Part shown: piece after piece, positions 13,690 to 41,187 of the stretch
Position numbering within the stretch: position 1 is the stretch's first letter
Layout of the letters: each line of letters opens with the position of its first letter
Notes under the pieces: generated by a model
Database searches by the model: none
What the model saw: the letters and a program-made list of their open reading frames with translations, nothing else
Told to the model about the DNA's origin: nothing
Assembly (NCBI GenBank): GCA_026417875.1
Contig: JAOACK010000005.1
Span: 5,062 to 69,061 of the forward strand
Direction: 5' to 3'
Origin: Thermodesulfovibrionales bacterium
Lineage (GTDB): Bacteria > Nitrospirota > Thermodesulfovibrionia > Thermodesulfovibrionales > CALJEL01
Length of the DNA stretch: 64,000 nt
Made by a program: the position numbers and the translations under genes

Positions 13690-14140
13690 TCCATTCTCCC
13701 AAGTTAATCCTTGTTGTAAATACATCTATGCAATTAATATAAGCCTGTTCTTCTATCCGGACATGACCCATTCTGTTAGAAAGTCCATCTTTTTGAAAAT
13801 TGAATGTATTGTTTGAAAAATTATTTCTTAAAGTGTATGGAAGGCTCCTCTGGACTATAATTCTATCACCCTGGTCATCGCAATCTCCATCTCCATCAGG
13901 TACTGGACTGTAGTCTCCTTTTATTACATAAGAATTTGTTCCCAGGGTTACGCATACCAATCTGTTTTCTGAAAGTGCTATCTGCCTGCCTCTAAGAAGA
14001 TCTGCATGTATCTCCCTGATGGTCCTTTCAACATTATATCTTCTCATCCATCCCTGAAAGGAAATGGTAATAGCAAACAATATCGCAATTATTGCAACAA
14101 CAATGACAACCTCTGTAATGGTAAAGCCTTTGGTATTCAC
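13664..14140 (-). CDS. FimT/GspH-like minor pilin
   Basis: The N-terminus MNTKGFTITEVVIVVAIIAILFAITI is a prepilin signal, followed by RTIREIHADLLRGRQIAL, typical of the GspH/FimT domain. Confidence 0.7.
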   Translation of the reverse strand: MNTKGFTITEVVIVVAIIAILFAITISFQGWMRRYNVERTIREIHADLLRGRQIALSENRLVCVTLGTNSYVIKGDYSPVPDGDGDCDDQGDRIIVQRSLPYTLRNNFSNNTFNFQKDGLSNRMGHVRIEEQAYINCIDVFTTRINLGEWNGSQCIAK

Positions 14141-18276: not shown

Positions 18277-18312
18277 AATGAGTACCTCCTTAGAGATTCC
18301 TTCTCTTTTTAA

Positions 18313-18327
18313 GCAACTGCCGTGCCA
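18313..18327 (-). promoter_or_regulatory. Sigma-54 (-24/-12) promoter for the pilY1 minor-pilin operon
   Basis: The plus strand reads GCAA-CTGCC-GTGCCA, which is TGGCAC-GGCAG-TTGC on the minus strand. This exactly matches TGGCAC-N5-TTGC. It lies about 37 nt upstream of the ATG at 18276 and inside the over-extended track ORF. Confidence 0.6.
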
Positions 18328-18567
18328 GTTGAAAAGTTTCAAAAAAATCTATAGATTTCCTATTATTTCACAGGCTTGATTGTGTAACAGATTACATAAA
18401 GTAGGCAAAAAAGTACATAATCTTGCACAACCTAAGACAACAGAAATCTATAATATGCCACCTACTATCTAAGAATGTGTAATAAAATAGGAAGGAAAAT
18501 CTAAAGCAAAGTATTTTAAAAGTACTGCACAAAATAATTAGCACTTAAAGTAATACTGCCACTTAAA

Positions 18568-28954: not shown

Positions 28955-30211
28955 ATGAGAATAATATCACTGGTTTTATTCCTGATACACCTCTTAAGTT
29001 CAGTATCTTCTTCAGAAGATTCCTGTACAGCCAGATGCCATCAGCCCATGCTCAAGGGAAAGAATATCCATCCACCGGCTTATTCCTGTGAAAGCTGTCA
29101 TTTACTCCTTGGAGACAGGCATCCGGTAAAGAATAAAAAAACCTTTAGTCTTATATCAGAGGTACCATTGCTTTGCTGGACATGCCATCAGGAACCAAAA
29201 CCTTTATCTTCAACCCATCCACCCTTTAAACAGGGACTCTGTACAGGCTGTCATAATCCCCATGAATCCGAGCACAGTGGTCTCCTGAAGGAATCTCCTG
29301 AAAAGGTATGCCTGTCCTGTCATGAAGACAAACATAAAGGAAATTTTCTTCATGGACCATCTGCCGCTGGAGACTGTTTTTACTGTCATGGTGCCCATCA
29401 ATCAGAAAAAAAATTTCTTTTAAAAAATAAGGAGCCAGACCTCTGTCTTGACTGCCATTATGATATCTCAATAGAACTTAAAAAACCCTCTATACATCCA
29501 GCCATTAATTCCGGTTGCTCCTCCTGCCATAATCCCCATGCCTCTAACTATAGAAAATTTCTTATCAATCAGGGCGACAGACTCTGTTTCTCCTGTCATC
29601 CATTGATTGAAGAAAAAATAAGCAGATCAAAATCAGTTCACAGACCTATTAAGACTGATAAAGCCTGTGCATCCTGCCATTTACCTCACTCAAGCTCGGG
29701 CACAAAACTCATGGAAAAGTCTGGTATGGATGCCTGCCTTGAGTGCCATAAGAAATTCATAGATATAAAAAGAGACAGGTATCTTCACGGGCCTATTAAT
29801 AATGGAGATTGCTCTTCCTGTCATGACAGTCATGGAAGCCAGTATAGAAAACTTCTTGTAATGGATTTTCCAGAAGAGTTATATGTGCCTTATAACGAAA
29901 AAGCCTATGCGCTGTGCTTTTCCTGTCATAACAGAGATCTGCTCAGATACCCGGACACAAGTTTTGCCACAGGATTCAGGGATGGAAACAGGAACCTACA
30001 CTATCTTCATGTCAATAAAAAGGACAAGGGCAGAAGCTGCAGGTTCTGCCATACAATCCATGGAGGTACCCTTCCAAAATTAATTGCAGAAAAAGTAAGA
30101 TTCGGAAACTGGGACCTTCCAGTTGGTTTCACTAAAACCGAAACAGGTGGAACCTGCGCACCTGGCTGTCACAGAAAATATACATACGATAGAAAAACCA
30201 GAGCAAGATGA
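28955..30211 (+). CDS. Multihaem c-type cytochrome (13 CXXCH plus 2 CX3CH motifs)
   Basis: 418 aa with a signal peptide. The regularly spaced motifs are CESCH, CWTCH, CTGCH, CLSCH, CFYCH, CLDCH, CSSCH, CFSCH, CASCH, CLECH, CSSCH, CFSCH and CRFCH, plus CTARCH and CAPGCH. The repeats are cytochrome c7/c3-like. Confidence 0.9.
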   Translation: MRIISLVLFLIHLLSSVSSSEDSCTARCHQPMLKGKNIHPPAYSCESCHLLLGDRHPVKNKKTFSLISEVPLLCWTCHQEPKPLSSTHPPFKQGLCTGCHNPHESEHSGLLKESPEKVCLSCHEDKHKGNFLHGPSAAGDCFYCHGAHQSEKKFLLKNKEPDLCLDCHYDISIELKKPSIHPAINSGCSSCHNPHASNYRKFLINQGDRLCFSCHPLIEEKISRSKSVHRPIKTDKACASCHLPHSSSGTKLMEKSGMDACLECHKKFIDIKRDRYLHGPINNGDCSSCHDSHGSQYRKLLVMDFPEELYVPYNEKAYALCFSCHNRDLLRYPDTSFATGFRDGNRNLHYLHVNKKDKGRSCRFCHTIHGGTLPKLIAEKVRFGNWDLPVGFTKTETGGTCAPGCHRKYTYDRKTRAR

Positions 30212-30486
30212 GTATTCCTGAAAGAAAATCCAGAAGGAAAAAGATTTTTCAGGAGATATCCATAAATATACCTGGGGAAGCCAGCAGTAATTTCAAAGGC
30301 GTACTATTAGATATAAGTGAAGAAGGGCTGGGGCTTTCAACAGAATATCCCCTGAAGCCAGGACAGCTAATAGAGATAATAATGCAGGAAGGTATTGTTA
30401 CAGGCACTGTCATGTGGACTTTTAAAAGGAATGGTCTTTTCAGGGCAGGGATCTACAGGAATAGTATAAGAAAGAAATCTATTTGA
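30208..30486 (+). CDS. PilZ-domain protein (putative c-di-GMP receptor)
   Basis: 92 aa with RKSRR (RxxxR) and DISEEG (DxSxxG) motifs at the correct spacing. Its ATG overlaps the cytochrome TGA (ATGA). Confidence 0.7.
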   Translation: MSIPERKSRRKKIFQEISINIPGEASSNFKGVLLDISEEGLGLSTEYPLKPGQLIEIIMQEGIVTGTVMWTFKRNGLFRAGIYRNSIRKKSI

Positions 30487-30515: not shown

Positions 30516-31940
30516 ATGAAACATGTAAACTTTTTAAATCGGGGTCAAAACATGATGACTGCAATAAACAGTCCTGAGGCTTCAGGCTTCAGAAAGAAAG
30601 CCCTTGTTGTGGATGATGAATCCATAATAAGACTTTCACTGAAAAAATTTCTTGAGGATGAGGGATTTATCTCCCTTACTTCAAGCACAGGTATGGATGC
30701 CCTTAAAAAGATTGAAGAGGACCATCCAGATTTAGTAATCCTTGATATCCAGCTTCCTGACTCAAATGGATTAAACCTCCTTAAAACAATTAAGGAGATG
30801 AATCCATCAATAACAGTGATCATGATAACAGGGCATGCAGATGTGAAAGGTGCTGTTGAGGCAATGAAGATTGGCGCCCTTGATTATCTTGAAAAACCAA
30901 TAGATTTCAAAAATCTCAAAGAAACCCTTTCAAGATTAAGGTTTGATGTTCAAGAACATGCTACCGAAGCAGAAGGTTTGATTACCTTAAATCCAAGGAT
31001 GAAGGAGATTTACAGGGTAGCAGAAAGGCTCGCCACAAAGTCAGATGTAACAATACTTGTTCTCGGTGAAAGCGGAACCGGTAAAAATTTTCTTTGCAAA
31101 AAACTCCATGATATAAGTCCTAGAAGGAACATGCCTTTTGTAGAGGTAAGCTGTTCAAACATACCCGAACATCTAATAGAAAGTGAGCTTTTTGGATACG
31201 AAAAAGGTGCCTTTACTGATGCAAAGAACCTGAAAAAGGGTCTTGTTGAAATAGCCCATGGAGGAACCATATTCCTTGATGAAATAGGTGACATGCCCTA
31301 TCCTATGCAGTCAAAACTTCTCACTCTTATTGAAGAAAAAAGATTCAGAAGGATCGGGGGTCTGCAGTTCCTAAGAACAGATGTAAGGATACTTGCTGCA
31401 ACCAATAAAAACCTGCAGCAGCTGGTACATGAAGGAAAATTCAGGCTTGACCTTTATTACAGATTAAATGTGGCTACTGTGGAACTGCTACCTCTTAGAG
31501 AAAGAAAGGAAGATATTCCACTACTGGCAAACAATTTCTTAAAACATTACACCGAAAAATACAGTACCGGTAAGAAAACCTTCACAGAGCAAACAATTGA
31601 GGCAATGCAGAGATACAGCTGGCCAGGAAATATAAGGGAATTAAAAAATCTTGTAGAAAAGCTTGTCATACTTTCAAAATCTTATGAGATTGGAATCCAT
31701 GACCTGCCAGAATATTTTTTAAAAAATGAGACAACATGTCCATCAGAGGAATTAAAAACTTTTGAAAGAAGTTTCGCTAACCTCTCGCTTAGGGACATAG
31801 AAATAGAATGTATAAGAAAAGCCCTCCAAATTGCCAGAGGAAATCAAAAAAAGGCTGCTGAACTGCTCAATATAAGCAGGGATACACTCCGCTACCGCTT
31901 AAAAAAACTAGGTATCAGGGCTTCAGAATACAAAAGGTGA
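30516..31940 (+). CDS. Sigma-54-dependent response regulator (NtrC-family bEBP: REC + AAA+ + Fis-type HTH)
   Basis: 474 aa.
- Receiver domain: ALVVDDE ... LVILDIQLPDSNG.
- AAA+ domain: Walker A GESGTGKN, sigma-54 contact loop ELFGYEKGAFTDA, and Walker B IFLDEIGDM.
- C-terminal HTH: GNQKKAAELLNISRDTLRYRLKKLGI.
The true start may be the internal ATG near 30552. Confidence 0.9.
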   Translation: MKHVNFLNRGQNMMTAINSPEASGFRKKALVVDDESIIRLSLKKFLEDEGFISLTSSTGMDALKKIEEDHPDLVILDIQLPDSNGLNLLKTIKEMNPSITVIMITGHADVKGAVEAMKIGALDYLEKPIDFKNLKETLSRLRFDVQEHATEAEGLITLNPRMKEIYRVAERLATKSDVTILVLGESGTGKNFLCKKLHDISPRRNMPFVEVSCSNIPEHLIESELFGYEKGAFTDAKNLKKGLVEIAHGGTIFLDEIGDMPYPMQSKLLTLIEEKRFRRIGGLQFLRTDVRILAATNKNLQQLVHEGKFRLDLYYRLNVATVELLPLRERKEDIPLLANNFLKHYTEKYSTGKKTFTEQTIEAMQRYSWPGNIRELKNLVEKLVILSKSYEIGIHDLPEYFLKNETTCPSEELKTFERSFANLSLRDIEIECIRKALQIARGNQKKAAELLNISRDTLRYRLKKLGIRASEYKR

Positions 31941-31944
31941 ATAA

Positions 31945-33693
31945 TCATGGATATCTGGAATTTGACTCATTATGGAGCCTTCCGTGACAGTTCAGAACAC
32001 AGGATCCTGAAAAGCTTCCATAGTCAATAAACTTTGGATACAGATTTCCCTCGGCAGGCTGAACAATCCTTGTATCAAAATTTATAAGATGGGTGTGGTC
32101 ACCAGATTCAGGTGATAGCTCAACACCATGGGGATCATGACAGGCTGCGCATGATATAGCATTAAAAAGATGACCGCTATGACCTCCTCTTCCCGAAATA
32201 TTTCTCTGAAAACTCTCATCCCTTAAAATACTATCCCTGTTATGACATCTATAGCAAAGGGCATAATTATTATAGGACTCAGGAATTCCATCATCAGTCT
32301 CGTACCTCTCAGCAAGTATGGGTCTGAACCGCGATCCATGAACACCCCTTGCACCACTTCCTCCTACATCAGGACTGTCATCAGCCTGATGGCAGTCACT
32401 GCATCTGATAATGCTTGAGTATGTGAGGTCAGGTCTAAGGCTGCTGGGGATACTGGGTACAGCAGGATTTTTACCAGCTTCAATCACGGGGTGGTAGGAT
32501 GGGTTTGATGGACTGAACTCTATCCTTGTATTAACAGTATTTACTACCCTTGGCACAAAAGGAATTGAACCGCTTGAATCACCGTGACATTTAAAACATA
32601 ATTCATATTCATAAGTGACCTCCCTTACAGGGCCACCATTTCTGTCAATACCTTTTACACCGAGAAGCCTTCCTCCCGCATAGGGTGGGAGAGCATTACC
32701 ATCATTTACGGTATGAGGATTATGGCAATCAACACATTCCACATGTCCCCAAAGGGGAATCTCTTCTTCTGGCTTATGATAGGATGCAGTTATTCCTGTT
32801 GTTGTATCTTCAACAGGGTGTCTTGATATTCTTTGAAACTGAGAATAGACATCCTTTTGAGCTACATTTCCATTATGACATTTATAACAATTTCTTTCCT
32901 CCTCCTGATGATAAAGCAATCTCTCTCTTCCTTGTGCCCCATGAGGTGTATGACAGTTTTCACATCCATTTTCAGATACTGTAAGCCATCCAAAATCCGT
33001 TCCTCTTCCAGTAAAGGGCCAGGGATTAGGTTCAGCGCCATTCCAGACTGAAACAGAGGTCTTGTGGCTAGATGATTCCCAGCGATTTTTCATGTGGCAT
33101 TTAAGGCACAACCCTGAATACCTGTTATCAACAGCAAGAAACTTTCCATATTGATTATTATGGGGATCATGACAGGTGGAACAATGTATATTATACTGGA
33201 AGCCATAAAAGGTAAGGTCCCGGGGTGGCATGGGCACTATCTCGGGATTTGAAATCGAATCAAAATAGGAAAAAGAAACAGGATGGTCATCAGAAAGGTC
33301 AGTGCCTATATAGGACCTTCTATCGAGTGTGATCCTACCAGCAACCTCTATTCCACCCATTGGTCTCAGGACCATCCCCACAGCAACTATGCCATCATGA
33401 CAGCTAAGACAGAGTCTTGAAGGACCTTCAGGTTGTGCTGGAGACGCCCTGAGGGTTGAGCTCGCGTAAATATCATAATTCAGAGGTTCAAGTTCTCTGT
33501 TCCATAATGGAGTGAGGGGTTTTGCATTGTGAGGTGTATGACAGAACACACATATCCTTGTCTCTGAAAGTGCCTTTATCTCGCCAGGACCTGTAACTGA
33601 TAGATTGTGTTTTGTTCCGACAATACCGGTTGAAGCCTGAAGAGAGGATACCGTAACGAATGCAATAATCAACTCGATGACTATTTTTTTCAT
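31945..33693 (-). CDS. Multihaem c-type cytochrome (11 CXXCH plus 1 CX3CH)
   Basis: 582 aa with a signal peptide. The N-terminal signature is GTKHNL...ICVFCHTPHNAKPLTPLWN. The remaining motifs are CLSCH, CSTCH, CLKCH, CENCH, CYKCH, CVDCH, CFKCH, CSDCH, CYRCH, CAACH and CVLNCH. It is the last gene of the operon, and its start overlaps the upstream stop. Confidence 0.9.
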   Translation of the reverse strand: MKKIVIELIIAFVTVSSLQASTGIVGTKHNLSVTGPGEIKALSETRICVFCHTPHNAKPLTPLWNRELEPLNYDIYASSTLRASPAQPEGPSRLCLSCHDGIVAVGMVLRPMGGIEVAGRITLDRRSYIGTDLSDDHPVSFSYFDSISNPEIVPMPPRDLTFYGFQYNIHCSTCHDPHNNQYGKFLAVDNRYSGLCLKCHMKNRWESSSHKTSVSVWNGAEPNPWPFTGRGTDFGWLTVSENGCENCHTPHGAQGRERLLYHQEEERNCYKCHNGNVAQKDVYSQFQRISRHPVEDTTTGITASYHKPEEEIPLWGHVECVDCHNPHTVNDGNALPPYAGGRLLGVKGIDRNGGPVREVTYEYELCFKCHGDSSGSIPFVPRVVNTVNTRIEFSPSNPSYHPVIEAGKNPAVPSIPSSLRPDLTYSSIIRCSDCHQADDSPDVGGSGARGVHGSRFRPILAERYETDDGIPESYNNYALCYRCHNRDSILRDESFQRNISGRGGHSGHLFNAISCAACHDPHGVELSPESGDHTHLINFDTRIVQPAEGNLYPKFIDYGSFSGSCVLNCHGRLHNESNSRYP

Positions 33694-34667
33694 CTCTCCC
33701 TCTTCAGTTTGAATACCTGAATCCTCTGGTTATAGGTATCACATATATAAATATTCTCTGAAGTATCAATAAATATACAGGAAGGTAGCCAGAACTCAGC
33801 CTCACCCTTTCCCCTGGCACCCAGGGTGAGGAGAAATTCCCCTTTTTCATTGAAAAGCTGAACATTATCAAAAAGGGCATCAACCACATAGATTATCCCG
33901 TCCCTGTCAGCTCCCACTCCCTTGGGCATGGCAAAGTCTCCAGAACCATTTCCATGGTGACCGAAGAGATTTATAAGTGAACCGTCCTTTCTGAAAATCT
34001 GTATTCTGAAATTCATTGCATCAGTAACATACAGTCTGTCAGAAAGAGCTATATAAGTCGGAAAATTGAATTTCCCCGGCTCCTCTCCCCTTCCACCAAA
34101 GTGAAAAAGAGGCTTACCATCATGATAAACTGCACTCACAACATTTCTTAAAGTATCAACAACATAAAGGATTCCGGTCTCTCTGTCACAAACAAGCCCT
34201 GTAGGTTTGCTGAAACCATCTATAAATCCTCCATATCTACCTTCACTATCATATATAAAAACCTTTCCACGTAGAGAATCACTTACATAAAGTCTGTTAC
34301 TTTCATCAAAGGCAACACCAGCAGGTGAAAGAAGTTCACCGGAATCTATTTTGAAGAGGGTAATATATCTGCCATCCTCGGGTATAAAAAGATGAACACA
34401 TCCGCAACCACCATCAGCTATAGCAATCCTTCCATCACTTCCTTTTGCAAATGCCAGGGGTTTAATAAGCCTCACTTCCGTTCTACCAGTAAAAAAAGAA
34501 CGTAGGATATAATTTTTTTCCTTAAAACCATAAATCATTCCACCATAAACAATCTTACCGGACTGGTGGTACCATGAATGAGTCTTGGAAGAATCCTCAT
34601 GAAGAATGGACCATGAAGATGCACAGGCTGAAATGAAAAATATAATTAAAACAGGCAGCAGCTTCAT
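33690..34667 (-). CDS. NHL-repeat six-bladed beta-propeller lipoprotein
   Basis: 325 aa with a lipobox (FFISAC). NHL-type blades repeat throughout (PTGLVCDRETGILYVVDTLRN, PKGVGADRDGIIYVVDALFDNVQLFNEKGEF, IYICDTYNQRIQVF). Confidence 0.8.
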   Translation of the reverse strand: MKLLPVLIIFFISACASSWSILHEDSSKTHSWYHQSGKIVYGGMIYGFKEKNYILRSFFTGRTEVRLIKPLAFAKGSDGRIAIADGGCGCVHLFIPEDGRYITLFKIDSGELLSPAGVAFDESNRLYVSDSLRGKVFIYDSEGRYGGFIDGFSKPTGLVCDRETGILYVVDTLRNVVSAVYHDGKPLFHFGGRGEEPGKFNFPTYIALSDRLYVTDAMNFRIQIFRKDGSLINLFGHHGNGSGDFAMPKGVGADRDGIIYVVDALFDNVQLFNEKGEFLLTLGARGKGEAEFWLPSCIFIDTSENIYICDTYNQRIQVFKLKRER

Positions 34668-35578
34668 CTCTCTAAAACCTTCAATCTTTCTTCGTATATC
34701 TTTATCTCAGCACCTTTTTTTAATTCTTCTTTCCATTCTAACTCCCTCTTTTTCAATGCATTGGGGAAAAGCCTGTTTTCAAGATACACCCTCATCTCCT
34801 CAAGAGATGGGTACCTCTCCCCAGAATAATCAACAAGTTTGATAATATGCAAACCGTCAGTGGACTTAATCAATCCCGATAATTCTCCTGGTTTTAGCTT
34901 TTTTGCCTCTTCATAAAGTTCCTTGTGTTTCTCCCTGTTGAGCCTTATCTGGTTTATTATGAATGTTCCATCCTGAACAAGCCTCCAAGGATCACCATTA
35001 TATTCATTTTTTATTTTTGTAAGGAGTAATTCTGCTTTTTTTTCCATATCATCAGTATCTTTCAGAAATCTCAAATCAACAACTATAACCTTCTCTGGAA
35101 GTTTAAATTTCCCTTTCTCCTTCTCATAGTCAGCCTTTATATCATCCTCAGTAATCACGACTTTTTTTATAACCTCCTCAACATAAAGCATCTCCAGAAG
35201 AAGTTTTCTTTCAATTAATGAATAAAGTGATTCCTCTGATAAACCCTCTTTTTTAAGATAATCCGAGAATCCTCTTTCTCCAAGTCCTATTTTCAGTTCC
35301 ATAATTGCATTTTTAACATTTTTTTCATCAACTGTCATGCCAAGCTTTTTTGCTCTCTGAAAGGCTAGCTCTTCTATGATAATATTCTCAAGTATTTCTC
35401 TTACAGAGTCAACTGACGATGAGCCGACCTTTTGAGACAACAAATTCAGAAAATTAGAAAGATATACGGGATTTCCGTTTATCTCAGCAACGACGGCCTC
35501 TGGAAGCCTCTCCTCTGCAGAAATAGTATGAGCTAACAGAAGAACAATTATTAAACCCATAATAAAAAATCTAATCAT
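34664..35578 (-). CDS. SurA/PrsA-like parvulin-type peptidyl-prolyl isomerase (periplasmic chaperone)
   Basis: 304 aa with a signal peptide, a SurA-N-like helical region and a parvulin core (LKPGELSGLIKSTDGLHIIKL). Confidence 0.72.
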   Translation of the reverse strand: MIRFFIMGLIIVLLLAHTISAEERLPEAVVAEINGNPVYLSNFLNLLSQKVGSSSVDSVREILENIIIEELAFQRAKKLGMTVDEKNVKNAIMELKIGLGERGFSDYLKKEGLSEESLYSLIERKLLLEMLYVEEVIKKVVITEDDIKADYEKEKGKFKLPEKVIVVDLRFLKDTDDMEKKAELLLTKIKNEYNGDPWRLVQDGTFIINQIRLNREKHKELYEEAKKLKPGELSGLIKSTDGLHIIKLVDYSGERYPSLEEMRVYLENRLFPNALKKRELEWKEELKKGAEIKIYEERLKVLER

Positions 35579-35586
35579 CCTGCCTC

Positions 35587-37596
35587 CTAAAAAAGTTTTC
35601 TTTTTATATTTATATAAAACAGTTCAGAAAATCTTCTTGTATCCATATTATCTGAATGGGTCCTGCTCCACTGAAGATTTAGACCACCTGTAAGCTCAAG
35701 CATGCCTGACCTGAATGAAAGAGAAGAAGAAAGTAAATAGGCATCAGCATCGGAAAGAGAGTCCCTTCTTGTATACTTTGCCCCGCCATTCAACCAGAGG
35801 TTCCTGTAAAACTTTCTTCTTATATCAATAGCTGCTCCCTTTGTTGTCTCCTTGTAATCTCTTCTGGTCATGTAACCTTTCTGATACCAGGTCTCTGAAT
35901 AGAATATCTTTGATAGGATGTTAAAATTAGGATTTAGGTCTATTCCATATCTGAATTCTGCTCTGAAGGACTCTGAGGGATTTATGTTTGAATCAACATT
36001 CTGATACTGCAGAAAAATATTATAAGGCTTCCGTGAAATAATCAAGCCGACAGTATCTATCTCTGTATCAGGAAGTCTTCCCTCATAGAAACCGGACCTA
36101 AGGTATGTTTTCAGACTGTTATGGCTGTAATAGGGAGATAGAAGATTATTGAATAAATCAAGTCGCAGGTTATAACCATGGGTATCTGTTTTTAATTCAA
36201 CATCCCTGGCCTCTGTTCTATAGGATACAAAGAATTGGTAGGTTGTTATTGACGGATCTGTGCTCCATGCTCCTGGAGGTAGGTCAAGGATTCTGATTCT
36301 TGTAATATCCCCTATCTCTATGACCTCGTAATGAATTACCGGCGTGAGCAGGTAAAGCATCCTGTTATCAGGATTCTCGACATAGACTTCTATAGATTGT
36401 ATAAGGACATTTCTTTCATTCAGATCAAATTCATCATTACCTATGATACCCGGCTGTGCAGAATGGGGTTCTTTAATTATGCTCATTTCTCCCTTTCTAT
36501 CATGAAGGGATGTTCCCAAGTTAAAACCCGCAGTAAATCTACCACCCCTTATAGACTTTGTATAATTTGTTGAAAAAAAGTGAGAGGTTGTCTTGATCTC
36601 GCTCTGAATAGTTCTTAGAAGATTATCCTCAAAAGACATTGATGACAGGTAATTGAACCGGTAAGTGGTGCTCAAACTTGCAAATAACTGATGGGAAAGG
36701 CTGAAAAGGCCACTATTTACCTCACGCTCTCTTTTAATCCTCTTATCAGCGGTACTTTCATCTTTTGTATAACTGAATGATAGACCTGATGAAAAATTAA
36801 AGGGTAACCTCAGTAACAGTCTCTCAGACCAGTTGAAAGAATCAATATCCTGTTTAAGCAGGTCTCTGTGTGTTGAATGGTCAAAGGATAAAGATGAATT
36901 AAGATTAAAGAATCCAAGATTTATACCATTACCTAACTGATAAAGTTCTCTTGAATCTGAACCAGGGGATTCACTCTTTAAAAAAGAACCTGTAAATGAA
37001 AGGCTCCTTCCACCTTTGAATTCCTTAAAGTACCTCATGCTATTACTGAATAGTCTTGTATCATATCTTATATCTTCCTGATGGGTGGAAACCTGAGAGT
37101 AGAGCATATTAAGAAAATAAGGTTTTTTTTCATATTTGAATTTCCCACCTTCAATGGTAATCACAGCAGGTGATATCCTCATGAGACCCTGCCTTGAAAG
37201 CGGTTCTTTTCTGATAAAGAAGAGCTCAAGATTATAAGGATGTTCAGGAAGAATAAAGTTCCTCCATTCGTATTCAAATGATGAAGAAGTCCACCAGGAT
37301 GCCTTACGATTCTCTGTCCTGAAATCCTCATGCTTCAGACCCGCAGATGTCTTTAAATAGATCGTAATAAATCTTGGATGGTATACATAGCCTCTCAGGA
37401 TAAGATTAATTTTTTCCTTGAGAAAAACATCCTGCCTCATGAAACCACTTTCATCTGTTCTATTCTCATCCCTGGTAAAGGAGAAATTTATCTCAAGCTC
37501 ACCCTCTGCATCGTAAAGCCTGGGCGTAAAATCAAGGGCATGGACAGGGCCAATATCCATTAATAAAAGGAACATCATTATTAAAAATAAATTCAT
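35587..37596 (-). CDS. Predicted outer-membrane beta-barrel protein (no recognised family)
   Basis: 669 aa with a signal peptide. Alternating hydrophobic/polar beta-strand patterns rich in Y/F/S/N/R run throughout. The C-terminal residue is aromatic (...INIKRKLF), as in OMP sorting signals. Confidence 0.55.
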   Translation of the reverse strand: MNLFLIMMFLLLMDIGPVHALDFTPRLYDAEGELEINFSFTRDENRTDESGFMRQDVFLKEKINLILRGYVYHPRFITIYLKTSAGLKHEDFRTENRKASWWTSSSFEYEWRNFILPEHPYNLELFFIRKEPLSRQGLMRISPAVITIEGGKFKYEKKPYFLNMLYSQVSTHQEDIRYDTRLFSNSMRYFKEFKGGRSLSFTGSFLKSESPGSDSRELYQLGNGINLGFFNLNSSLSFDHSTHRDLLKQDIDSFNWSERLLLRLPFNFSSGLSFSYTKDESTADKRIKREREVNSGLFSLSHQLFASLSTTYRFNYLSSMSFEDNLLRTIQSEIKTTSHFFSTNYTKSIRGGRFTAGFNLGTSLHDRKGEMSIIKEPHSAQPGIIGNDEFDLNERNVLIQSIEVYVENPDNRMLYLLTPVIHYEVIEIGDITRIRILDLPPGAWSTDPSITTYQFFVSYRTEARDVELKTDTHGYNLRLDLFNNLLSPYYSHNSLKTYLRSGFYEGRLPDTEIDTVGLIISRKPYNIFLQYQNVDSNINPSESFRAEFRYGIDLNPNFNILSKIFYSETWYQKGYMTRRDYKETTKGAAIDIRRKFYRNLWLNGGAKYTRRDSLSDADAYLLSSSLSFRSGMLELTGGLNLQWSRTHSDNMDTRRFSELFYINIKRKLF

Positions 37597-37631
37597 TTCT
37601 AAAAAATCTCGTCTCCATAAATTCTGTAAAA

Positions 37632-38165
37632 TTAATTCTTTAAAATAAATCTATCATTCCCTGAATGGGCATCATGACAGTCAAGACATCTGAGGTCTGA
37701 ATACATATGAACGTCATTCTTGAGGATATCGTTTTTATCATGGCAGTACAGACAGAATTCTCTGGGTTCTGATACAAGCATATAGGCATAGCCTGAACTA
37801 TGAGGCAGATGACAGACCCTGCATCCACCTGCAGCGATTGGACCGTGAATCCATCTATTTTCAATATTCATATCATGACAGTAAAGACATAATTTTTCAG
37901 CAGGCATTATTAATTCATTCGTATCCCTTTTATGACAGCCATAACACATCTTTGCAGCATAGGGACCATGCTCTGTAGGTCTGCCCAGCAGCTTTTTTTC
38001 TGTAGAATCACCGTCCTTTTCTTTTTTTGCAGTTGGCTCAGGCTCTGTTATTTTTGGCGGGGGTACACCATCAAAGAAGAAAGAGAGTATCCTGTATCTC
38101 TTCACTGGGTCAGAGCATCCAGAGATGAACGCTACCATCAGATATATCATCATGAGTCTTTTCAT
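37632..38165 (-). CDS. Pentahaem c-type cytochrome lipoprotein
   Basis: 177 aa with a lipobox (FISGCS). The five motifs are CYGCH, CLYCH, CRVCH, CLYCH and CLDCH. Confidence 0.85.
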   Translation of the reverse strand: MKRLMMIYLMVAFISGCSDPVKRYRILSFFFDGVPPPKITEPEPTAKKEKDGDSTEKKLLGRPTEHGPYAAKMCYGCHKRDTNELIMPAEKLCLYCHDMNIENRWIHGPIAAGGCRVCHLPHSSGYAYMLVSEPREFCLYCHDKNDILKNDVHMYSDLRCLDCHDAHSGNDRFILKN

Positions 38166-38177
38166 GAGTTAACTGAT

Positions 38178-39332
38178 TCAGTCCGATTTTTCACCCTCCG
38201 GTAAACTCTGTCTTTCAAAGACCTGCTGTTTCTTTCTTACCTCCTCCAGAAGTTCCTGATCTGTGCGATACCTCACACCTTTTTGTTTGCCAAAGGCATA
38301 TACATTCACCATCCTGTCACCGAACTGACTTGTAACTATTATAATGTATTCAATTTCAAAATCAGGTGCAGCATACTGTCTGAAATAATCTATATGTTTA
38401 TAATCAATCACTACCTCTGCAGGAAGGATGAGCCTTCCTGGTCTTGTCCCTCCACCACCAAAGAACATGAGAAGAAATCCATCCTTATTAAATATCTGGA
38501 CATTAAAGAATGCAGCATCAACAACATATATCCTGCCTTCTTTATCAACAGCAACACCTCTGGGTCTTGCAAAATGTCCGAGATTAACACCGAGCCTTCC
38601 TACTGTTCCCTTAAAATGACCATCCCTGTCAAATTTTACAATCTGGAACCTTCCTGCATCGCTTACATAAAGAATACCTTCTCTGTCAAAGACAAGATTT
38701 GTTGGTCTGTCAAGCCATTCAGATATATCACCCTTTCTACCAAAGGTTCTGTTGAGTTCACCAGTGAGTTTATCAAATACCTTTATCTCACCGTTCTTTA
38801 TATCAGCTACATATACTTCATCGCCAAAGGCAACGGCATCAACTGGTTTCCAGTCTCCTATAATGCCGAAGGATTTTACATAAAAATCATTTCTATCAAA
38901 CACAACAACCTGTTTTCTAACGGGGTCAGATACATATTTATTCCCCTCTTCATCTATGCTTATATTAACAGGTTGCATGAGCTTTCCCTGACCTATTGCA
39001 CCCTTAAGGTATTCATATCTTTTATTTCTTAAATCAAAGACAATAACACCTGCATTAGTATCACATACATAGATCTTTCCATCGTATATAGCTACTCCAT
39101 AGGGTTTATCAAGCCTCCTTATATCCTCCTTTTCGCCTGTTATGAATTTTTCAAAACTGGATTTTGGAGGTTCAACATCCTTTGCACCTGTAAAGGACAT
39201 GAGAAATTGAATTCTTGGAGGATCGGGCGGTTCAGGAAAAAATACAGCAGGTTCTTTTATCTCCTTTTGGGGTGCAGCGCAAGCAGATATGATAATTATT
39301 AGAAACAGGAGCCCTGATTTTAACGTTGGCAT
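38178..39332 (-). CDS. NHL-repeat six-bladed beta-propeller lipoprotein
   Basis: 384 aa with a lipobox (IIISAC). Its blades include PYGVAIYDGKIYVCDTNAG, PTNLVFDREGILYVSDAGRFQIVKFDRDGHF and PRGVAVDKEGRIYVVDAAFFNVQIFNKDGF. The long plus-strand ORF 38283-39032 is its antisense shadow. Confidence 0.85.
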   Translation of the reverse strand: MPTLKSGLLFLIIIISACAAPQKEIKEPAVFFPEPPDPPRIQFLMSFTGAKDVEPPKSSFEKFITGEKEDIRRLDKPYGVAIYDGKIYVCDTNAGVIVFDLRNKRYEYLKGAIGQGKLMQPVNISIDEEGNKYVSDPVRKQVVVFDRNDFYVKSFGIIGDWKPVDAVAFGDEVYVADIKNGEIKVFDKLTGELNRTFGRKGDISEWLDRPTNLVFDREGILYVSDAGRFQIVKFDRDGHFKGTVGRLGVNLGHFARPRGVAVDKEGRIYVVDAAFFNVQIFNKDGFLLMFFGGGGTRPGRLILPAEVVIDYKHIDYFRQYAAPDFEIEYIIIVTSQFGDRMVNVYAFGKQKGVRYRTDQELLEEVRKKQQVFERQSLPEGEKSD

Positions 39333-39388: not shown

Positions 39389-39420
39389 AAAAAAGAAGGG
39401 AAGGGGAAACCCTTCCCTTC
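39389..39420 (-). terminator. Rho-independent terminator after the tetrahaem cytochrome gene
   Basis: On the minus strand the sequence reads GAAGGGAAGGG-TTT-CCCCTTCCCTTC followed by TTTTTT, starting 10 nt after the stop codon. Confidence 0.8.
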
Positions 39421-39429
39421 TAATTGAGT

Positions 39430-40218
39430 TTAAGGTGTCTTCTGTCCTTTTGCGTGGCAGGAAAGACAGAGATTGCTGTTAGAGTCGCTCACGTATAGCA
39501 ATTTCTCACCGCTATTTCCAGTGTTATGAACTGCGTGGCAGGTTGAGCATTCCATCTTTCCATTCCAGAGATAGTTGCTAACAGGCACTGTGCCGAAGGT
39601 TGCTGTTGCAGAGTCATAGATTTCAGGATCTTCAGCAGCAACACTGTCATAGTCAAAACCGATTGGATGATGGTTGAGGAGATAGCCATCTTTACCAATT
39701 TTATACTGATCTGCAATAACGCTTCCTCCTGAACTCCTTGATCTTGAATCCTGTGGCGCATGACCATACTCATTAACTGCAACAGTTCCATCATGGCAGC
39801 TTAAGCAGAGAAGTGATACAGAGCCCACTCTGTCAAAATAATCAACGGACTGTGGAGCCTTTGATCCTGCGATGGGTTTATCAGGTCCTGGATCATAGGG
39901 TGCGAAGACCTGAGTGGTGACAGCATGGTTCCATAACGGAAGATAGGTATAGTCAGCAGGTGCCTCAGGACCTGTACCTGCTCCGGCTGCTGTGCTTAAC
40001 TTATATGCATGGTGAGGTGCATGACACCAAACACAGATTCTGTTCAGATAATCAGCTGGTTGAGCAGGATAATTTCCGCCTGGCTGACCCTGCCTTAAAT
40101 CATGGGGTGTGCCATTTATACCTGTACCAGGTGTATAGTTTCCAGTAAAAGCCATTGCTACAGCACATACGAGAATAACCACTAGTAGGCTGAACAAAGG
40201 TATTAAAGACCTTTTCAT
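39430..40218 (-). CDS. Tetrahaem c-type cytochrome (secreted)
   Basis: 262 aa with a signal peptide. The motifs are CVWCHAPH...PLWN (the same N-terminal signature as the 582-aa cytochrome), CLSCH, CSTCH and CLSCH. A strong RBS (AAGGAGG) lies upstream. The codon composition is visibly more G/C-rich than in neighbouring genes. Confidence 0.9.
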   Translation of the reverse strand: MKRSLIPLFSLLVVILVCAVAMAFTGNYTPGTGINGTPHDLRQGQPGGNYPAQPADYLNRICVWCHAPHHAYKLSTAAGAGTGPEAPADYTYLPLWNHAVTTQVFAPYDPGPDKPIAGSKAPQSVDYFDRVGSVSLLCLSCHDGTVAVNEYGHAPQDSRSRSSGGSVIADQYKIGKDGYLLNHHPIGFDYDSVAAEDPEIYDSATATFGTVPVSNYLWNGKMECSTCHAVHNTGNSGEKLLYVSDSNSNLCLSCHAKGQKTP

Positions 40219-40292
40219 CTGAAAACCTCCTTACTAAACTGAACTGCTCAATGAGCAGCCGAAACCCTTTCCTGACAGGCACATATTATTTA

Positions 40293-40307
40293 GCAATTCA
40301 TGTGCCA
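40293..40307 (-). promoter_or_regulatory. Sigma-54 promoter for the tetrahaem cytochrome gene
   Basis: The plus strand reads GCAA-TTCAT-GTGCCA, which is TGGCAC-ATGAA-TTGC(T) on the minus strand. This is a perfect consensus, about 75 nt upstream of the ATG at 40218. Confidence 0.7.
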
Positions 40308-40630: not shown

Positions 40631-40646
40631 TGGCATGCTTATTGCT
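40631..40646 (+). promoter_or_regulatory. Sigma-54 promoter for the large extracellular cytochrome gene
   Basis: TGGCAT-GCTTA-TTGCT lies about 100 nt upstream of the ATG at 40746, which has an AAAGGAGG RBS. Confidence 0.65.
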
Positions 40647-40745: not shown

Positions 40746-41141
40746 ATGAAGTTAGTTTGCTGGTTAATAAGCCTGATAGTTCTATCAGGGACAATATTTG
40801 GGGCATCGGAGGGAATGGCTGCCCATCCTGATGTAGCTTTAAGGGATGCAGATGGAAACCTTATTCAACCAGGTTCCAATATACCCTATTCTCCAAAGCA
40901 GACCTGTGGAACTAGCCAGTGCCATGATACCATAGCCTCAAGATACGGGCTGAATAACATCTATGAGCACGGAGTGCTTTATGCACAGAAGGATCACGGT
41001 TCAGGTTCACCATCATACACAAATCCCTACAGTGTGCTCTATCCAGAACATGGAATAACATCCGGCTTTCACTTCCAGCAGGGAAGGGATGTTCCATGGG
41101 GAGATACAGAGAACATATTACGGTGTCCCGTCATTCACTAA
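40746..41141 (+). CDS. N-terminal fragment of a large multihaem cytochrome (signal peptide + CX4CH site)
   Basis: 131 aa with a signal peptide (MKLVCWLISLIVLSGTIFGASEG) and TCGTSQCHD. It ends in ...GFHFQQGRDVPWGDTENILRCPVIH*. The +1 frame is open from about 41059 and carries the plausible continuation QRTYYGVPSFTNSPGMYGKY. Confidence 0.6.
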   Translation: MKLVCWLISLIVLSGTIFGASEGMAAHPDVALRDADGNLIQPGSNIPYSPKQTCGTSQCHDTIASRYGLNNIYEHGVLYAQKDHGSGSPSYTNPYSVLYPEHGITSGFHFQQGRDVPWGDTENILRCPVIH

Positions 41142-41187
41142 CTCACCAGGAATGTATGGCAAGTATTGACCACCTTCAAACCGCCAG

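What the first reader, a model, noticed from the sequence alone, without database searches (positions are those of the whole stretch)
31945..39332. Six-gene operon: NHL lipoprotein, 5-haem lipoprotein, beta-barrel, PPIase, NHL lipoprotein, 11/12-haem cytochrome, resembling a porin-cytochrome conduit
The genes abut or overlap: 33690/33693, 34664/34667, and an 8-nt gap at 35578/35587. Co-translation as one unit is therefore likely. A small lipoprotein cytochrome, a large barrel and a large secreted cytochrome recall the Geobacter porin-cytochrome logic. Two features are unusual. The operon contains duplicated six-bladed NHL propeller lipoproteins, both with ISAC lipoboxes, and a dedicated SurA-like chaperone. 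NHL propellers could act as scaffolds or substrate and mineral-binding modules.
Basis: partly seen in the sequence, partly recalled or inferred. Interest (0 to 1): 0.7.

Follow-up and report, generated by a model that had tools for sequence, protein, structure and literature searches.

The report
Cytochrome nanowire-type electron conduit gene cluster

Summary
They are not a free-standing porin-cytochrome operon. The gene immediately upstream (39430-40218) encodes a tetrahaem homologue of OmcE, the subunit of two solved cytochrome nanowires. It has a sigma-54-type promoter and a strong terminator.

The large cytochrome (31945-33693) begins with a complete second OmcE module fused to a novel eight-haem domain. 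The unannotated 669-aa protein models confidently as a beta-barrel of about 30 strands.

The order tetrahaem, NHL, pentahaem lipoprotein, barrel, (PPIase), NHL, undeca/dodecahaem is conserved around the barrel in 46 genomes. It recurs in at least nine phyla. The parts list matches two published systems:
- the uet cluster of Ca. Tenderia;
- the minimal omcE nanowire cluster of Desulfuromonadia.

The two NHL propellers and the PPIase are therefore hallmarks of this cluster type, not oddities.

Best reading: this is a Thermodesulfovibrionales member of that family. The barrel operon would assemble, anchor and wire a probably polymerising OmcE-like subunit. Filament formation is inferred, not shown.

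The most novel reading left open is that the fused cytochrome is the filament's base or cap.

The parts
39430..40218 (-). OmcE-like tetrahaem cytochrome (262 aa, Sec signal peptide). Proposed extracellular, probably polymerising, subunit. Lies outside the finding's coordinates.
   Evidence: PDB sequence search: 7TFS (OmcE nanowire) E 3.1e-15; 9YUQ E 6.4e-11. Four CxxCH and four distal His align with Geobacter OmcE. The family has 3701 hits at 50-90% identity.
40292..40307 (-). Sigma-54 type -24/-12 promoter consensus (TGGCACATGAATTGCT), 74 nt upstream of the OmcE-like start codon.
   Evidence: Exact match. The same motif (at most 1 mismatch) occurs upstream of OmcE-like genes in 19/31 related loci, against 23/620 control windows.
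39394..39421 (-). Intrinsic terminator hairpin (12-bp stem plus T-run) directly after the OmcE-like stop codon and before the six-gene operon.
   Evidence: An equivalent hairpin plus T-run (dG -17.6 kcal/mol or stronger) is present in 27/28 related loci, against 1/112 random windows at dG <= -15.
38178..39332 (-). NHL_A: beta-propeller lipoprotein (384 aa, lipobox ISAC). Always follows the tetrahaem gene.
   Evidence: Pfam NHL E 1.5e-15. PDB TRIM71 NHL E 3e-33. Lipobox; Cys kept in 91% of 77 homologues. Found upstream of the barrel in 37/37 loci.
37632..38165 (-). Pentahaem lipoprotein cytochrome (177 aa, lipobox ISGC, conserved FDGVP motif after the anchor).
   Evidence: Five CxxCH. Five haem motifs, five distal His and the lipobox Cys are invariant or near-invariant in 48 homologues. 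Present in 39/42 loci.
35587..37596 (-). Large outer-membrane beta-barrel (669 aa, about 30 strands, roughly 70-aa insert at residues 381-452, all other loops short). Family has no Pfam or NCBIfam model.
   Evidence: AF2 mean pLDDT 91.7, pTM 0.77. Foldseek finds only generic large barrels (LptD, ushers, TonB-dependent receptors; TM about 0.35). A profile search finds 2003 cluster representatives. No family hit.
34664..35578 (-). SurA/PrsA-like periplasmic peptidyl-prolyl isomerase chaperone (304 aa, signal peptide). Optional member of the cluster.
   Evidence: Pfam Rotamase_2 E 1.4e-11, SurA_N_3 E 3.6e-7. Present between the barrel and NHL_B in 23/38 loci, mostly Nitrospirota.
33690..34667 (-). 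NHL_B: beta-propeller lipoprotein (325 aa, lipobox ISAC). Its gene immediately precedes the large cytochrome gene, with a 4-nt overlap in the window.
   Evidence: Pfam NHL E 3.9e-23, DUF5128 6-bladed propeller E 1.3e-18. The NHL_B / large-cytochrome gene pair occurs in nearly all of 120 loci from many phyla.
31945..33693 (-). Dodecahaem cytochrome (582 aa, Sec signal, no lipobox). It is an N-terminal complete OmcE module (residues 1-202) fused to a novel C-terminal eight-haem domain, and is the UetJ-like undecahaem equivalent.
   Evidence: 7TFS E 2.7e-25; 9YUQ E 5.4e-25 over 2-218 of 218 residues. All eight OmcE haem ligands are conserved. Foldseek finds only 7TFS (E 3.9e-4) and nothing for the C-terminal domain. 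E 8e-39 to an 11-haem protein in a c7-NHL-NHL-cytochrome locus of a gammaproteobacterial MAG.
28955..30211 (+). MtrA/DmsE-like periplasmic multihaem cytochrome (418 aa, 13 CxxCH plus 2 variant motifs). Proposed periplasmic feeder.
   Evidence: PDB 6R2Q chain A E 1.1e-18. NCBIfam DmsE-family E 6.8e-38, but below its curated cut-off. Homologues occur in Geobacter omcE loci (E about 1e-74) and OmcS loci (E 1e-80 to 1e-120).
30208..30486 (+). PilZ-domain protein (92 aa). Its start overlaps the stop of the MtrA-like cytochrome gene.
   Evidence: Pfam PilZ E 9e-8. Conserved next to the cluster in close relatives.
30516..31940 (+). NtrC-type sigma-54 activator / response regulator (474 aa). Proposed activator of the OmcE-like promoter.
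   Evidence: Pfam Response_reg, Sigma54_activat E 1.2e-63, HTH_8. Homologues lie beside window-type loci (13/21) and OmcS loci (E about 1e-100).
40746..44010 (+). Divergently transcribed pair: a 131-aa signal-peptide ORF and a 940-aa heptahaem cytochrome with two PKD domains and a CarboxypepD_reg domain. Probable surface cytochrome linked to the cluster.
   Evidence: Pfam. Seven CxxCH. A PKD-cytochrome occurs in 16/21 loci, but only its C-terminal domains are homologous between lineages.

Best explanation
The six genes are the outer-membrane assembly, anchoring and wiring operon of a Uet / OmcE-type extracellular electron-transfer system. The host is a Thermodesulfovibrionales (Nitrospirota) bacterium. 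The whole locus spans about 28.9-44.0 kb.

Shown by tool results:
- A tetrahaem OmcE homologue is encoded directly upstream. It has a sigma-54-type promoter and a terminator.
- The operon encodes a beta-barrel of about 30 strands, two propeller lipoproteins, a pentahaem lipoprotein and a SurA-like PPIase.
- It also encodes a dodecahaem cytochrome whose first ~200 residues are a second complete OmcE module.
- An MtrA-like periplasmic multihaem cytochrome, a PilZ protein and a sigma-54 activator sit alongside.
- The gene set and order are conserved across phyla.

Inferred mechanism:
1. All proteins are exported by Sec and the cytochromes are haem-loaded in the periplasm.
2. The PPIase and the NHL lipoproteins keep the largely coil-structured OmcE-type modules assembly-competent and dock them at the barrel.
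3. The barrel lets cytochrome cross or sit in the outer membrane.
4. The abundantly expressed tetrahaem protein polymerises outside the cell into an OmcE-like haem wire.
5. The fused cytochrome joins one filament end through its OmcE module. Its extra eight haems, the pentahaem lipoprotein and the MtrA-like cytochrome connect the wire to the periplasm.

The direction of electron flow (out to minerals or partner cells, or inward) cannot be read from the sequence.
For: OmcE homology and intact haem ligands:
- The standalone tetrahaem protein matches 7TFS and 9YUQ, with all four CxxCH and four distal His conserved.
- The N-terminus of the 582-aa protein matches them even better.

Match to published clusters:
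- The minimal omcE cluster is described as two multihaem cytochromes, two beta-propeller lipoproteins, OmcE and a large beta-barrel. OmcE homologues with that context are reported from Nitrospirota.
- The uet cluster has a tetrahaem, a PPIase, a 28-strand barrel, two NHL proteins and an undecahaem.
- The 582-aa protein is collinear (E 8e-39) with an 11-haem protein in a c7-NHL-NHL-cytochrome locus.

Barrel: the model has pLDDT 91.7 and about 30 strands.

Synteny: conserved in 46 barrel-centred loci and in many phyla.

Expression architecture fits a subunit made in large excess:
- A terminator follows the tetrahaem gene in 27/28 loci, against 1/112 control windows.
- A sigma-54 motif is upstream in 19/31 loci, against 23/620 controls.
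- A sigma-54 activator is adjacent.

Shared toolkit with Geobacter omcE and OmcS loci: NHL lipoprotein, MtrA-like cytochrome and sigma-54 activator.

PPIases are needed for OmcS and OmcZ nanowires according to papers.
Against: - No filament has been seen for any member of this Nitrospirota/Acidobacteriota-type cluster. All 46 barrel-centred loci are MAGs or uncultured-organism assemblies.
- The standalone tetrahaem protein is only distantly related to solved OmcE (E 3e-15). It carries a ~20-residue insertion after haem 1.
- The barrel family shows no detectable sequence homology to the ~750-aa proteins of Geobacter omcE loci (hhalign 12.9%) or OmcS loci (39.9%).
- The PPIase is missing in 15/38 loci.
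- The uet authors read their cluster as a non-filamentous porin-cytochrome conduit for electron uptake.
- No complex was modelled, so every protein-protein contact is inference.
Confidence: 0.6

Rival explanations
1. A non-polymerising porin-cytochrome conduit. One multihaem cytochrome sits inside the barrel. The tetrahaem protein and the lipoprotein cytochrome act as 1:1 surface or periplasmic partners, and no nanowire is made.
For: - Barrel plus cytochromes plus lipoprotein cytochrome.
- An MtrA-like cytochrome is adjacent.
- The uet cluster was interpreted this way.
- No filament evidence exists for this lineage.
Against: - Two OmcE modules have every inter-subunit haem ligand kept.
- The conserved terminator and own promoter set the tetrahaem gene apart, as expected for a component made in excess.
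- The barrel is not in the MtrB/PioB family.
- A canonical MtrB_PioB porin with its own cytochrome sits next to the cluster in a Thermoanaerobaculia locus. The two are therefore separate devices.
Confidence: 0.28
2. The 582-aa fused cytochrome, not the 262-aa protein, is the polymerising subunit. Its OmcE modules would form the core wire and the eight-haem domains would decorate it. The small tetrahaem protein would be a minor subunit, a tip or a shuttle.
For: - Its OmcE module is closer to the solved OmcE filaments (E about 1e-25) than the standalone protein is (E 3e-15).
- The family is extremely widespread and 50-60% conserved.
- UetJ is reported as highly expressed in Ca. Tenderia.
Against: - It is the last, translationally coupled gene of the accessory operon. 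It is always paired with an NHL gene.
- The standalone gene has the strong promoter and terminator signals.
- A standalone tetrahaem gene almost always co-occurs with it.
Confidence: 0.08
3. Not an electron conduit to the outside. Instead it is a periplasmic or outer-membrane redox enzyme complex, for example for sulfur or metal-compound turnover, in which the NHL propellers are catalytic.
For: - The NHL proteins weakly resemble ScyF, arylesterase and SMP-30 type propellers.
- The host order is known for sulfur metabolism (own knowledge).
Against: - Those hits are far below the curated cut-offs.
- No conserved His or Cys beyond the lipobox exists in the NHL families.
- Every other component is a cytochrome, barrel or chaperone of a known extracellular electron-transfer cluster type.
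Confidence: 0.04

Closest known systems
uet (undecahaem electron transfer) cluster uetABCDEFGHIJ of Ca. Tenderia electrophaga, also reported in Gallionella and Leptothrix/Ideonella (bioRxiv 10.1101/2022.05.06.490989; PMC10734462; PMC13386937)
   Same: - Tetrahaem extracellular cytochrome, PPIase, large barrel (28 strands predicted there, about 30 here), two NHL propeller proteins and an 11-CxxCH secreted cytochrome.
- The NHL gene directly precedes the undecahaem gene.
- The window's 582-aa protein is collinear (E 8e-39) with the 11-haem protein of a c7-NHL-NHL-cytochrome locus in a gammaproteobacterial MAG.
   Different: - The window has no trihaem c7 proteins and no cupredoxin.
- It has a pentahaem lipoprotein, a twelfth CX3CH haem motif and a different gene order.
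- The host is an anaerobic Nitrospirota lineage rather than an aerobic electroautotroph.
- Direct comparison with the Tenderia sequences was not possible.
omcE nanowire gene cluster of Desulfuromonadia (G. sulfurreducens OmcE, PDB 7TFS; D. soudanensis OmcE, matched here as PDB 9YUQ; bioRxiv 10.1101/2025.10.22.684050)
   Same: - OmcE-homologous tetrahaem subunit.
- NHL lipoproteins homologous at E 1e-34 to 1e-44.
- MtrA-like cytochrome homologous at E about 1e-74.
- A large barrel gene beside the subunit.
   Different: - The barrel family is not detectably homologous.
- Geobacter loci have no fused OmcE-module cytochrome and no PPIase within 10 kb.
- No glycosylation genes are present here.
- The window subunit carries an insertion after haem 1.
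osc (OmcS-companion) cluster of G. sulfurreducens (Shen et al. 2025, as summarised in PMC13194489)
   Same: - The logic is subunit plus PPIase chaperone (OscH), channel-like proteins (OscEFG) and a propeller-like protein (OscD).
- OmcS loci share the NHL neighbour, the sigma-54 activator and the MtrA-like cytochrome with the window.
   Different: - There is no OmcS homologue in the window.
- The ~750-aa protein of OmcS loci is not detectably related to the window barrel (hhalign 39.9% over 64 columns).
- The original paper could not be read.
MtrCAB / Pcc / Ext porin-cytochrome conduits
   Same: - A barrel combined with multihaem cytochromes and a lipoprotein cytochrome.
- The neighbouring 418-aa cytochrome resembles MtrA (6R2Q chain A E 1e-18).
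   Different: - The barrel has no MtrB_PioB signature and has more strands.
- The MtrA-like gene is outside the operon.
- There is no MtrC/OmcA-type lipoprotein decahaem.
- OmcE modules, NHL lipoproteins and a PPIase are present.

Membership tests
OmcE-type cytochrome nanowire cluster | Tetrahaem OmcE homologue with four CxxCH motifs and four further haem-ligating His | tested here: met
   39430-40218: 7TFS E 3.1e-15, 9YUQ E 6.4e-11. All eight ligand positions align. A second complete module lies in residues 1-202 of the 582-aa protein.
OmcE-type cytochrome nanowire cluster | Large outer-membrane beta-barrel gene next to the subunit gene | tested here: met
   The 669-aa protein is modelled as a barrel of about 30 strands, pLDDT 91.7. 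This is met by fold and position only. Sequence homology to the Geobacter omcE-locus ~750-aa protein was not detected.
OmcE-type cytochrome nanowire cluster | Beta-propeller lipoprotein(s) and two further multihaem cytochromes in the cluster | tested here: met
   Two NHL lipoproteins are homologous to the NHL genes of Geobacter omcE loci. There are 5-haem, 12-haem and 13-15-haem cytochromes.
OmcE-type cytochrome nanowire cluster | The subunit polymerises into an extracellular haem filament | not testable with these tools
   Needs cryo-EM or biochemistry, or at least multimer modelling with haems. Only indirect support exists from the promoter and terminator architecture.
Uet cluster | Tetrahaem + PPIase + ~28-strand barrel + two NHL proteins + secreted undecahaem cytochrome | tested here: met
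   Haem counts are 4 and 11(+1). PPIase. Barrel of about 30 strands. Two NHL proteins. Signal peptide without lipobox on the 582-aa protein.
Uet cluster | Three trihaem c7 cytochromes and a cupredoxin (UetDEFG) | tested here: not met
   The window holds only five multihaem ORFs, with 4, 5, 7, 11 and 13 CxxCH. None has three haems. The ORF list of the region shows no cupredoxin-sized extra gene inside the cluster.
Uet cluster | Sequence homology to the Ca. Tenderia Uet proteins | tested here: inconclusive
   The Tenderia sequences could not be fetched. As a proxy, the 11-CxxCH protein of a c7-NHL-NHL-cytochrome locus in an Ectothiorhodospiraceae MAG (L168) aligns with the window protein at E 8e-39 over residues 4-372. 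An Ideonella MAG has the same arrangement.
MtrCAB / Pcc porin-cytochrome conduit | MtrB/PioB-family porin | tested here: not met
   The barrel has no Pfam or NCBIfam hit. A true PF11854 porin lies next to the homologous cluster in L002 as a separate gene.
MtrCAB / Pcc porin-cytochrome conduit | MtrA/DmsE-family periplasmic decahaem encoded with the porin | tested here: inconclusive
   The 418-aa cytochrome matches DmsE-family TIGR03508 at E 6.8e-38, but its 130.6 bits fall below the 192.2-bit cut-off. It matches 6R2Q chain A at E 1.1e-18. It lies outside the six-gene operon, on the other strand.
osc (OmcS companion) cluster | OmcS-family hexahaem subunit | tested here: not met
   tblastn of an OmcS sequence recalled from memory finds only haem-motif-level matches in the window (best E 0.01). 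The recalled sequence is valid enough as a query, since it retrieved 236 relatives from genomes.

The most novel reading that the evidence does not exclude
The UetJ-type undeca/dodecahaem cytochrome (here 31945-33693) is the dedicated base (initiator or anchor) or cap of an OmcE-type nanowire. Its N-terminal OmcE module would slot into one filament end through the same His-haem cross-ligation used between subunits. Its eight-haem tail, held by its cognate NHL lipoprotein at a ~30-strand barrel, would wire the filament to the periplasm.

If so, 'Uet porin-cytochrome conduits' and 'OmcE nanowire clusters' would be one ancient machine found in at least nine phyla. The published open question of what starts, stops or anchors cytochrome nanowires would then have a concrete candidate. 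The authors of the D. soudanensis OmcE study state that no such candidate is encoded in the Desulfuromonadia omcE operons.
Probability: 0.3. Interest if true: 0.8.

Novelty: new member of a known kind. Interest (0 to 1): 0.5.

Why it matters
Cytochrome nanowires and outer-membrane conduits let microbes respire minerals and electrodes and exchange electrons with partner cells. How the wires are secreted, anchored, started and stopped is unresolved.

This locus shows that uncultured Thermodesulfovibrionales carry the full toolkit, and many other phyla do too. It links two literatures (Uet and OmcE) that my paper searches did not find connected.

It also points to three testable features:
- a fused OmcE-module cytochrome that could be the filament's base or cap;
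- one propeller lipoprotein gene next to each OmcE-module gene;
- a sigma-54 promoter and terminator arrangement consistent with high subunit expression.

Some cultured carriers were seen, for example Carboxylicivirga marina N1Y132, so experiments are feasible.

Tried and rejected
1. **Geobacter-type barrel.** I asked whether the barrel is a diverged copy of the Geobacter omcE or osc barrel. A profile HMM of 105 family members found nothing in 32 Geobacter omcE loci or 78 OmcS loci. hhalign gave 12.9% and 39.9%. Homology is therefore not claimed.

2. **MtrB-type porin.** There is no Pfam or NCBIfam hit. MtrB was not among the top 50 Foldseek matches.

3. **NHL lipoproteins capping an open haem through a conserved His.** Rejected, because no His is conserved in 77 or 117 homologues.

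4. **Barrel His73 and His119 as haem ligands.** His119 is conserved only in the Nitrospirota/Acidobacteriota subfamily. His73 (YHP motif) is 85% conserved across phyla but may simply be structural. Left as an unexplained note.

5. **The 131-aa ORF and the 940-aa PKD cytochrome as one frameshifted gene.** The split is conserved in relatives. Only the C-terminal PKD part is homologous across lineages. Not resolved.

6. **Reading Shen et al. 2025 and Wang et al. 2022.** Neither is held in the library.

8. **First terminator scan.** A whole-segment fold misplaced the hairpins. It was replaced by a local hairpin search with a random-window control.

9. **Geobacter sulfurreducens itself.** It was never returned by the genome scans, so close relatives were used instead.

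Full report
**Observation.**
The coordinates are 39332..38178, 38165..37632, 37596..35587, 35578..34664, 34667..33690 and 33693..31945. The junctions are gaps of 12, 35 and 8 nt followed by two 4-nt overlaps.

Pfam and NCBIfam support NHL / six-bladed propeller families for the first and fifth proteins. They support a Rotamase_2 plus SurA_N chaperone for the fourth and multihaem cytochrome families for the second and sixth. They find nothing for the 669-aa protein.

The lipoboxes (ISAC, ISGC, ISAC) and the haem counts (5, and 11 CxxCH plus CVLNCH) are as stated. The lipid-anchor Cys and the twelfth haem motif are conserved in homologues.

AlphaFold2, run with an 86-sequence alignment, models the 669-aa protein with mean pLDDT 91.7. 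The model is an all-beta barrel with about 30 DSSP strands, very short loops on both sides and one insert of roughly 70 residues. Foldseek finds only generic large outer-membrane barrels such as LptD, ushers and TonB-dependent receptors, at TM about 0.35.

The ORF immediately upstream on the same strand (40218..39430, 262 aa, four CxxCH) matches the OmcE nanowire subunit of G. sulfurreducens (PDB 7TFS, E 3.1e-15). It also matches a second OmcE-type chain, 9YUQ (E 6.4e-11).

The first 202 residues of the 582-aa cytochrome match these two structures even better. The E-values are 2.7e-25 and 5.4e-25, and the second match covers residues 2-218 of 218. In an alignment with Geobacter OmcE proteins, both window modules keep all four CxxCH motifs and all four additional His ligands.

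An AlphaFold2 model of the 582-aa protein (pLDDT 74) finds only 7TFS in the PDB (E 3.9e-4, 205 columns, 32% identity). The C-terminal region of about 380 residues, with eight haem motifs, has no structural match.

On the other side of the operon lies a 418-aa cytochrome with 13-15 haem motifs. It resembles chain A of PDB 6R2Q at E 1.1e-18. From my own knowledge, 6R2Q is the MtrCAB complex and chain A is MtrA, although the file's molecule label says otherwise. This cytochrome is also related to the DmsE family but scores below the curated cut-off. Next come a PilZ protein and an NtrC-type sigma-54 activator.

All five multihaem ORFs of the 64-kb window lie between 28.9 and 44.0 kb. A histidine kinase gene and a MutS2 gene flank this block.

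**Source and relatives.**
The barrel protein is identical to a hypothetical protein of a Thermodesulfovibrionales MAG. The barrel family has no Pfam model. A profile search nevertheless finds 2003 cluster representatives at E <= 1e-3.

Forty-six species-representative genomes carry a barrel homologue. All are MAGs or uncultured-organism assemblies. They come from Nitrospirota, Acidobacteriota/Thermoanaerobaculia, Binatia and some Desulfobacterota.

Around these homologues the gene order is tetrahaem, NHL_A, pentahaem lipoprotein, barrel, (PPIase), NHL_B, large cytochrome. The counts are:
- NHL_A 37/37
- pentahaem lipoprotein 39/42
- NHL_B 33/38
- large cytochrome 33/34
- tetrahaem on the same strand within 4.5 kb upstream 27/33
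- PPIase 23/38

I also scanned genomes for a motif specific to the C-terminal part of the large cytochrome. These loci came from Planctomycetota, Verrucomicrobiota, Calditrichota, Bacteroidota, Gemmatimonadota, Chloroflexi, Myxococcota and Alpha-, Beta- and Gammaproteobacteria. They include cultured strains.

In nearly all of these loci an NHL gene directly precedes the cytochrome gene. Many also hold the same barrel family (HMM E 1e-20 to 1e-50), the pentahaem lipoprotein, NHL_A and a tetrahaem protein of about 210-270 aa.

**Comparison with known systems.**
[quoted passage not shown] They also report OmcE homologues with such context in five phyla, including Nitrospirota.

I fetched 32 omcE loci, nearly all from Geobacter relatives, and compared them with the window. 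Their NHL genes (E 1e-34 to 1e-44) and their first cytochrome (E about 1e-74 to the window's 418-aa protein) are homologous to the window genes. They contain no fused OmcE-module cytochrome. Their ~750-aa barrel-position protein is not detectably related to the window barrel.

OmcS loci share the NHL neighbour, a sigma-54 activator (E about 1e-100) and an MtrA-like cytochrome. They again lack the window's barrel family.

The closest parts list is the uet cluster of Ca. Tenderia electrophaga: UetA tetrahaem, UetB PPIase, UetC barrel (28 strands, about 5 nm pore), UetH and UetI NHL, and UetJ secreted undecahaem. Its authors read it as a porin-cytochrome conduit for electron uptake. They also remarked that UetA and UetJ might interact or polymerise.

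I could not obtain the Tenderia sequences. As a proxy I used a gammaproteobacterial MAG locus with the order c7 trihaem, NHL, NHL, 11-CxxCH cytochrome. Its large cytochrome is collinear with the window's 582-aa protein at E 8e-39, including the whole OmcE module. An Ideonella MAG has the same arrangement, and UetJ has been reported in the Leptothrix/Ideonella group.

My paper searches found no paper that connects Uet with OmcE. The window lacks the trihaem c7 proteins and the cupredoxin of uet.

**Expression signals.**
An exact sigma-54 -24/-12 consensus lies 74 nt upstream of the OmcE-like start codon. The motif, with at most one mismatch, recurs upstream of the orthologous gene in 19/31 loci, against 23/620 control windows.

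A 12-bp GC-rich hairpin with a T-run follows the stop codon. Equivalent terminators (dG -17.6 kcal/mol or stronger) occur in 27/28 loci, against 1/112 random windows at dG <= -15.

The tetrahaem gene is therefore a separately controlled, terminator-bounded unit in front of the machinery operon. From my own knowledge, this layout is typical of major subunits of surface polymers. It fits a protein made in large excess over its partners.

**Mechanism.**
The shown facts are the parts, their homologies, their conserved order and the expression signals. The rest is inferred.

I propose that the PPIase and the two NHL lipoproteins keep the coil-rich OmcE modules assembly-competent and dock them at the barrel. 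One NHL gene lies next to each OmcE-module gene. The barrel would pass or hold cytochrome across the outer membrane, and the tetrahaem protein would polymerise outside the cell.

The fused cytochrome would couple one filament end to the pentahaem lipoprotein and the MtrA-like periplasmic cytochrome.

Papers report that PPIases matter for OmcS and OmcZ nanowires and that nanowire anchoring and termination are unsolved.

The main rival is a non-polymerising conduit. It cannot be excluded, because no filament has been observed for this cluster type. The direction of electron flow is also unknown.

**Verdict.**
The operon is real and interesting. It is a member of an already described kind of system (Uet / OmcE-type clusters) rather than a new one.

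The residual novelty has three parts. One is the fused OmcE module as a candidate filament base or cap. The second is the apparent unity of Uet and OmcE clusters. The third is the size and breadth of an unannotated ~30-strand barrel family.

Noticed in passing
window 18312-18327 (-): A second exact sigma-54 -24/-12 consensus (TGGCACGGCAGTTGCT). It lies just inside the listed 5' end of a 1401-aa ORF (14137..18342) that has He_PIG and dockerin domains. The real start codon is probably further downstream, and this large surface protein may also be sigma-54 controlled.
   Followed up: no
window 40746-41141 (+) and 41188-44010 (+); motif at 40631-40646 (+): A 131-aa signal-peptide ORF with a CX4CH motif and the 940-aa heptahaem-PKD cytochrome lie in different frames, 46 nt apart. 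The same split is seen in relatives whose barrel protein is about 80% identical. This could be two genes, a frameshift or recoding. A one-mismatch sigma-54 motif lies about 100 nt upstream. Only the PKD/CarboxypepD part is homologous to the 'PKD cytochromes' of other lineages.
   Followed up: partly
window 35587-37596 (-), barrel residues 69-76 and 116-125: The motifs GYVYHPRF and LPEHPYNLELF are invariant in the Nitrospirota/Acidobacteriota subfamily and sit at neighbouring turns. Across phyla only the YHP motif persists (His 85%, Pro 96%). Its function is unknown; it may be a docking site or purely structural.
   Followed up: partly
window 30208-30486 (+): The PilZ-domain gene overlaps the stop of the MtrA-like cytochrome gene by 4 nt. 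This hints at cyclic-di-GMP-linked control of the system. PilZ or PilZ-receiver genes also flank related loci.
   Followed up: no
L002 9958-12726 (Thermoanaerobaculia MAG GCA_039932055): A canonical MtrB_PioB-family porin with its own cytochrome sits directly beside the homologous cluster. The two barrel types therefore coexist as separate devices.
   Followed up: no
L004 15135-17341 (Nitrospirae MAG GCA_016217675): Directly downstream of the large cytochrome gene lie an AAA_16/AAA_22 ATPase gene and a T2SSB-domain gene. They may be a secretion-related add-on. They are absent from the window.
   Followed up: no
L251 (Carboxylicivirga marina N1Y132), L202 (Motiliproteus sp. SC1-56), L250 (Aromatoleum evansii KB740): Cultured strains carry homologues of the large cytochrome. 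In C. marina the locus also holds NHL_B, a ~224-aa tetrahaem protein, NHL_A, a pentahaem-lipoprotein-like ORF and a sigma-54 activator. These strains could serve as experimental hosts.
   Followed up: no
window 33066 region (-): residue 210 of the 582-aa protein: A conserved G-W-x-S-x-x-H motif lies about 10 residues after the last haem motif of the OmcE module. The His is kept in at least 90% of homologues. It could be the 'ninth histidine' that Petersen et al. postulate for a stopper protein, or simply a ligand of a C-terminal haem.
   Followed up: partly
Genome-contig collection: Geobacter sulfurreducens itself was never returned when OmcE (7TFS-derived) and OmcS sequences were used as queries. 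The best hits had only 82% and 67% identity. The reference loci may be masked or absent from the collection.
   Followed up: no
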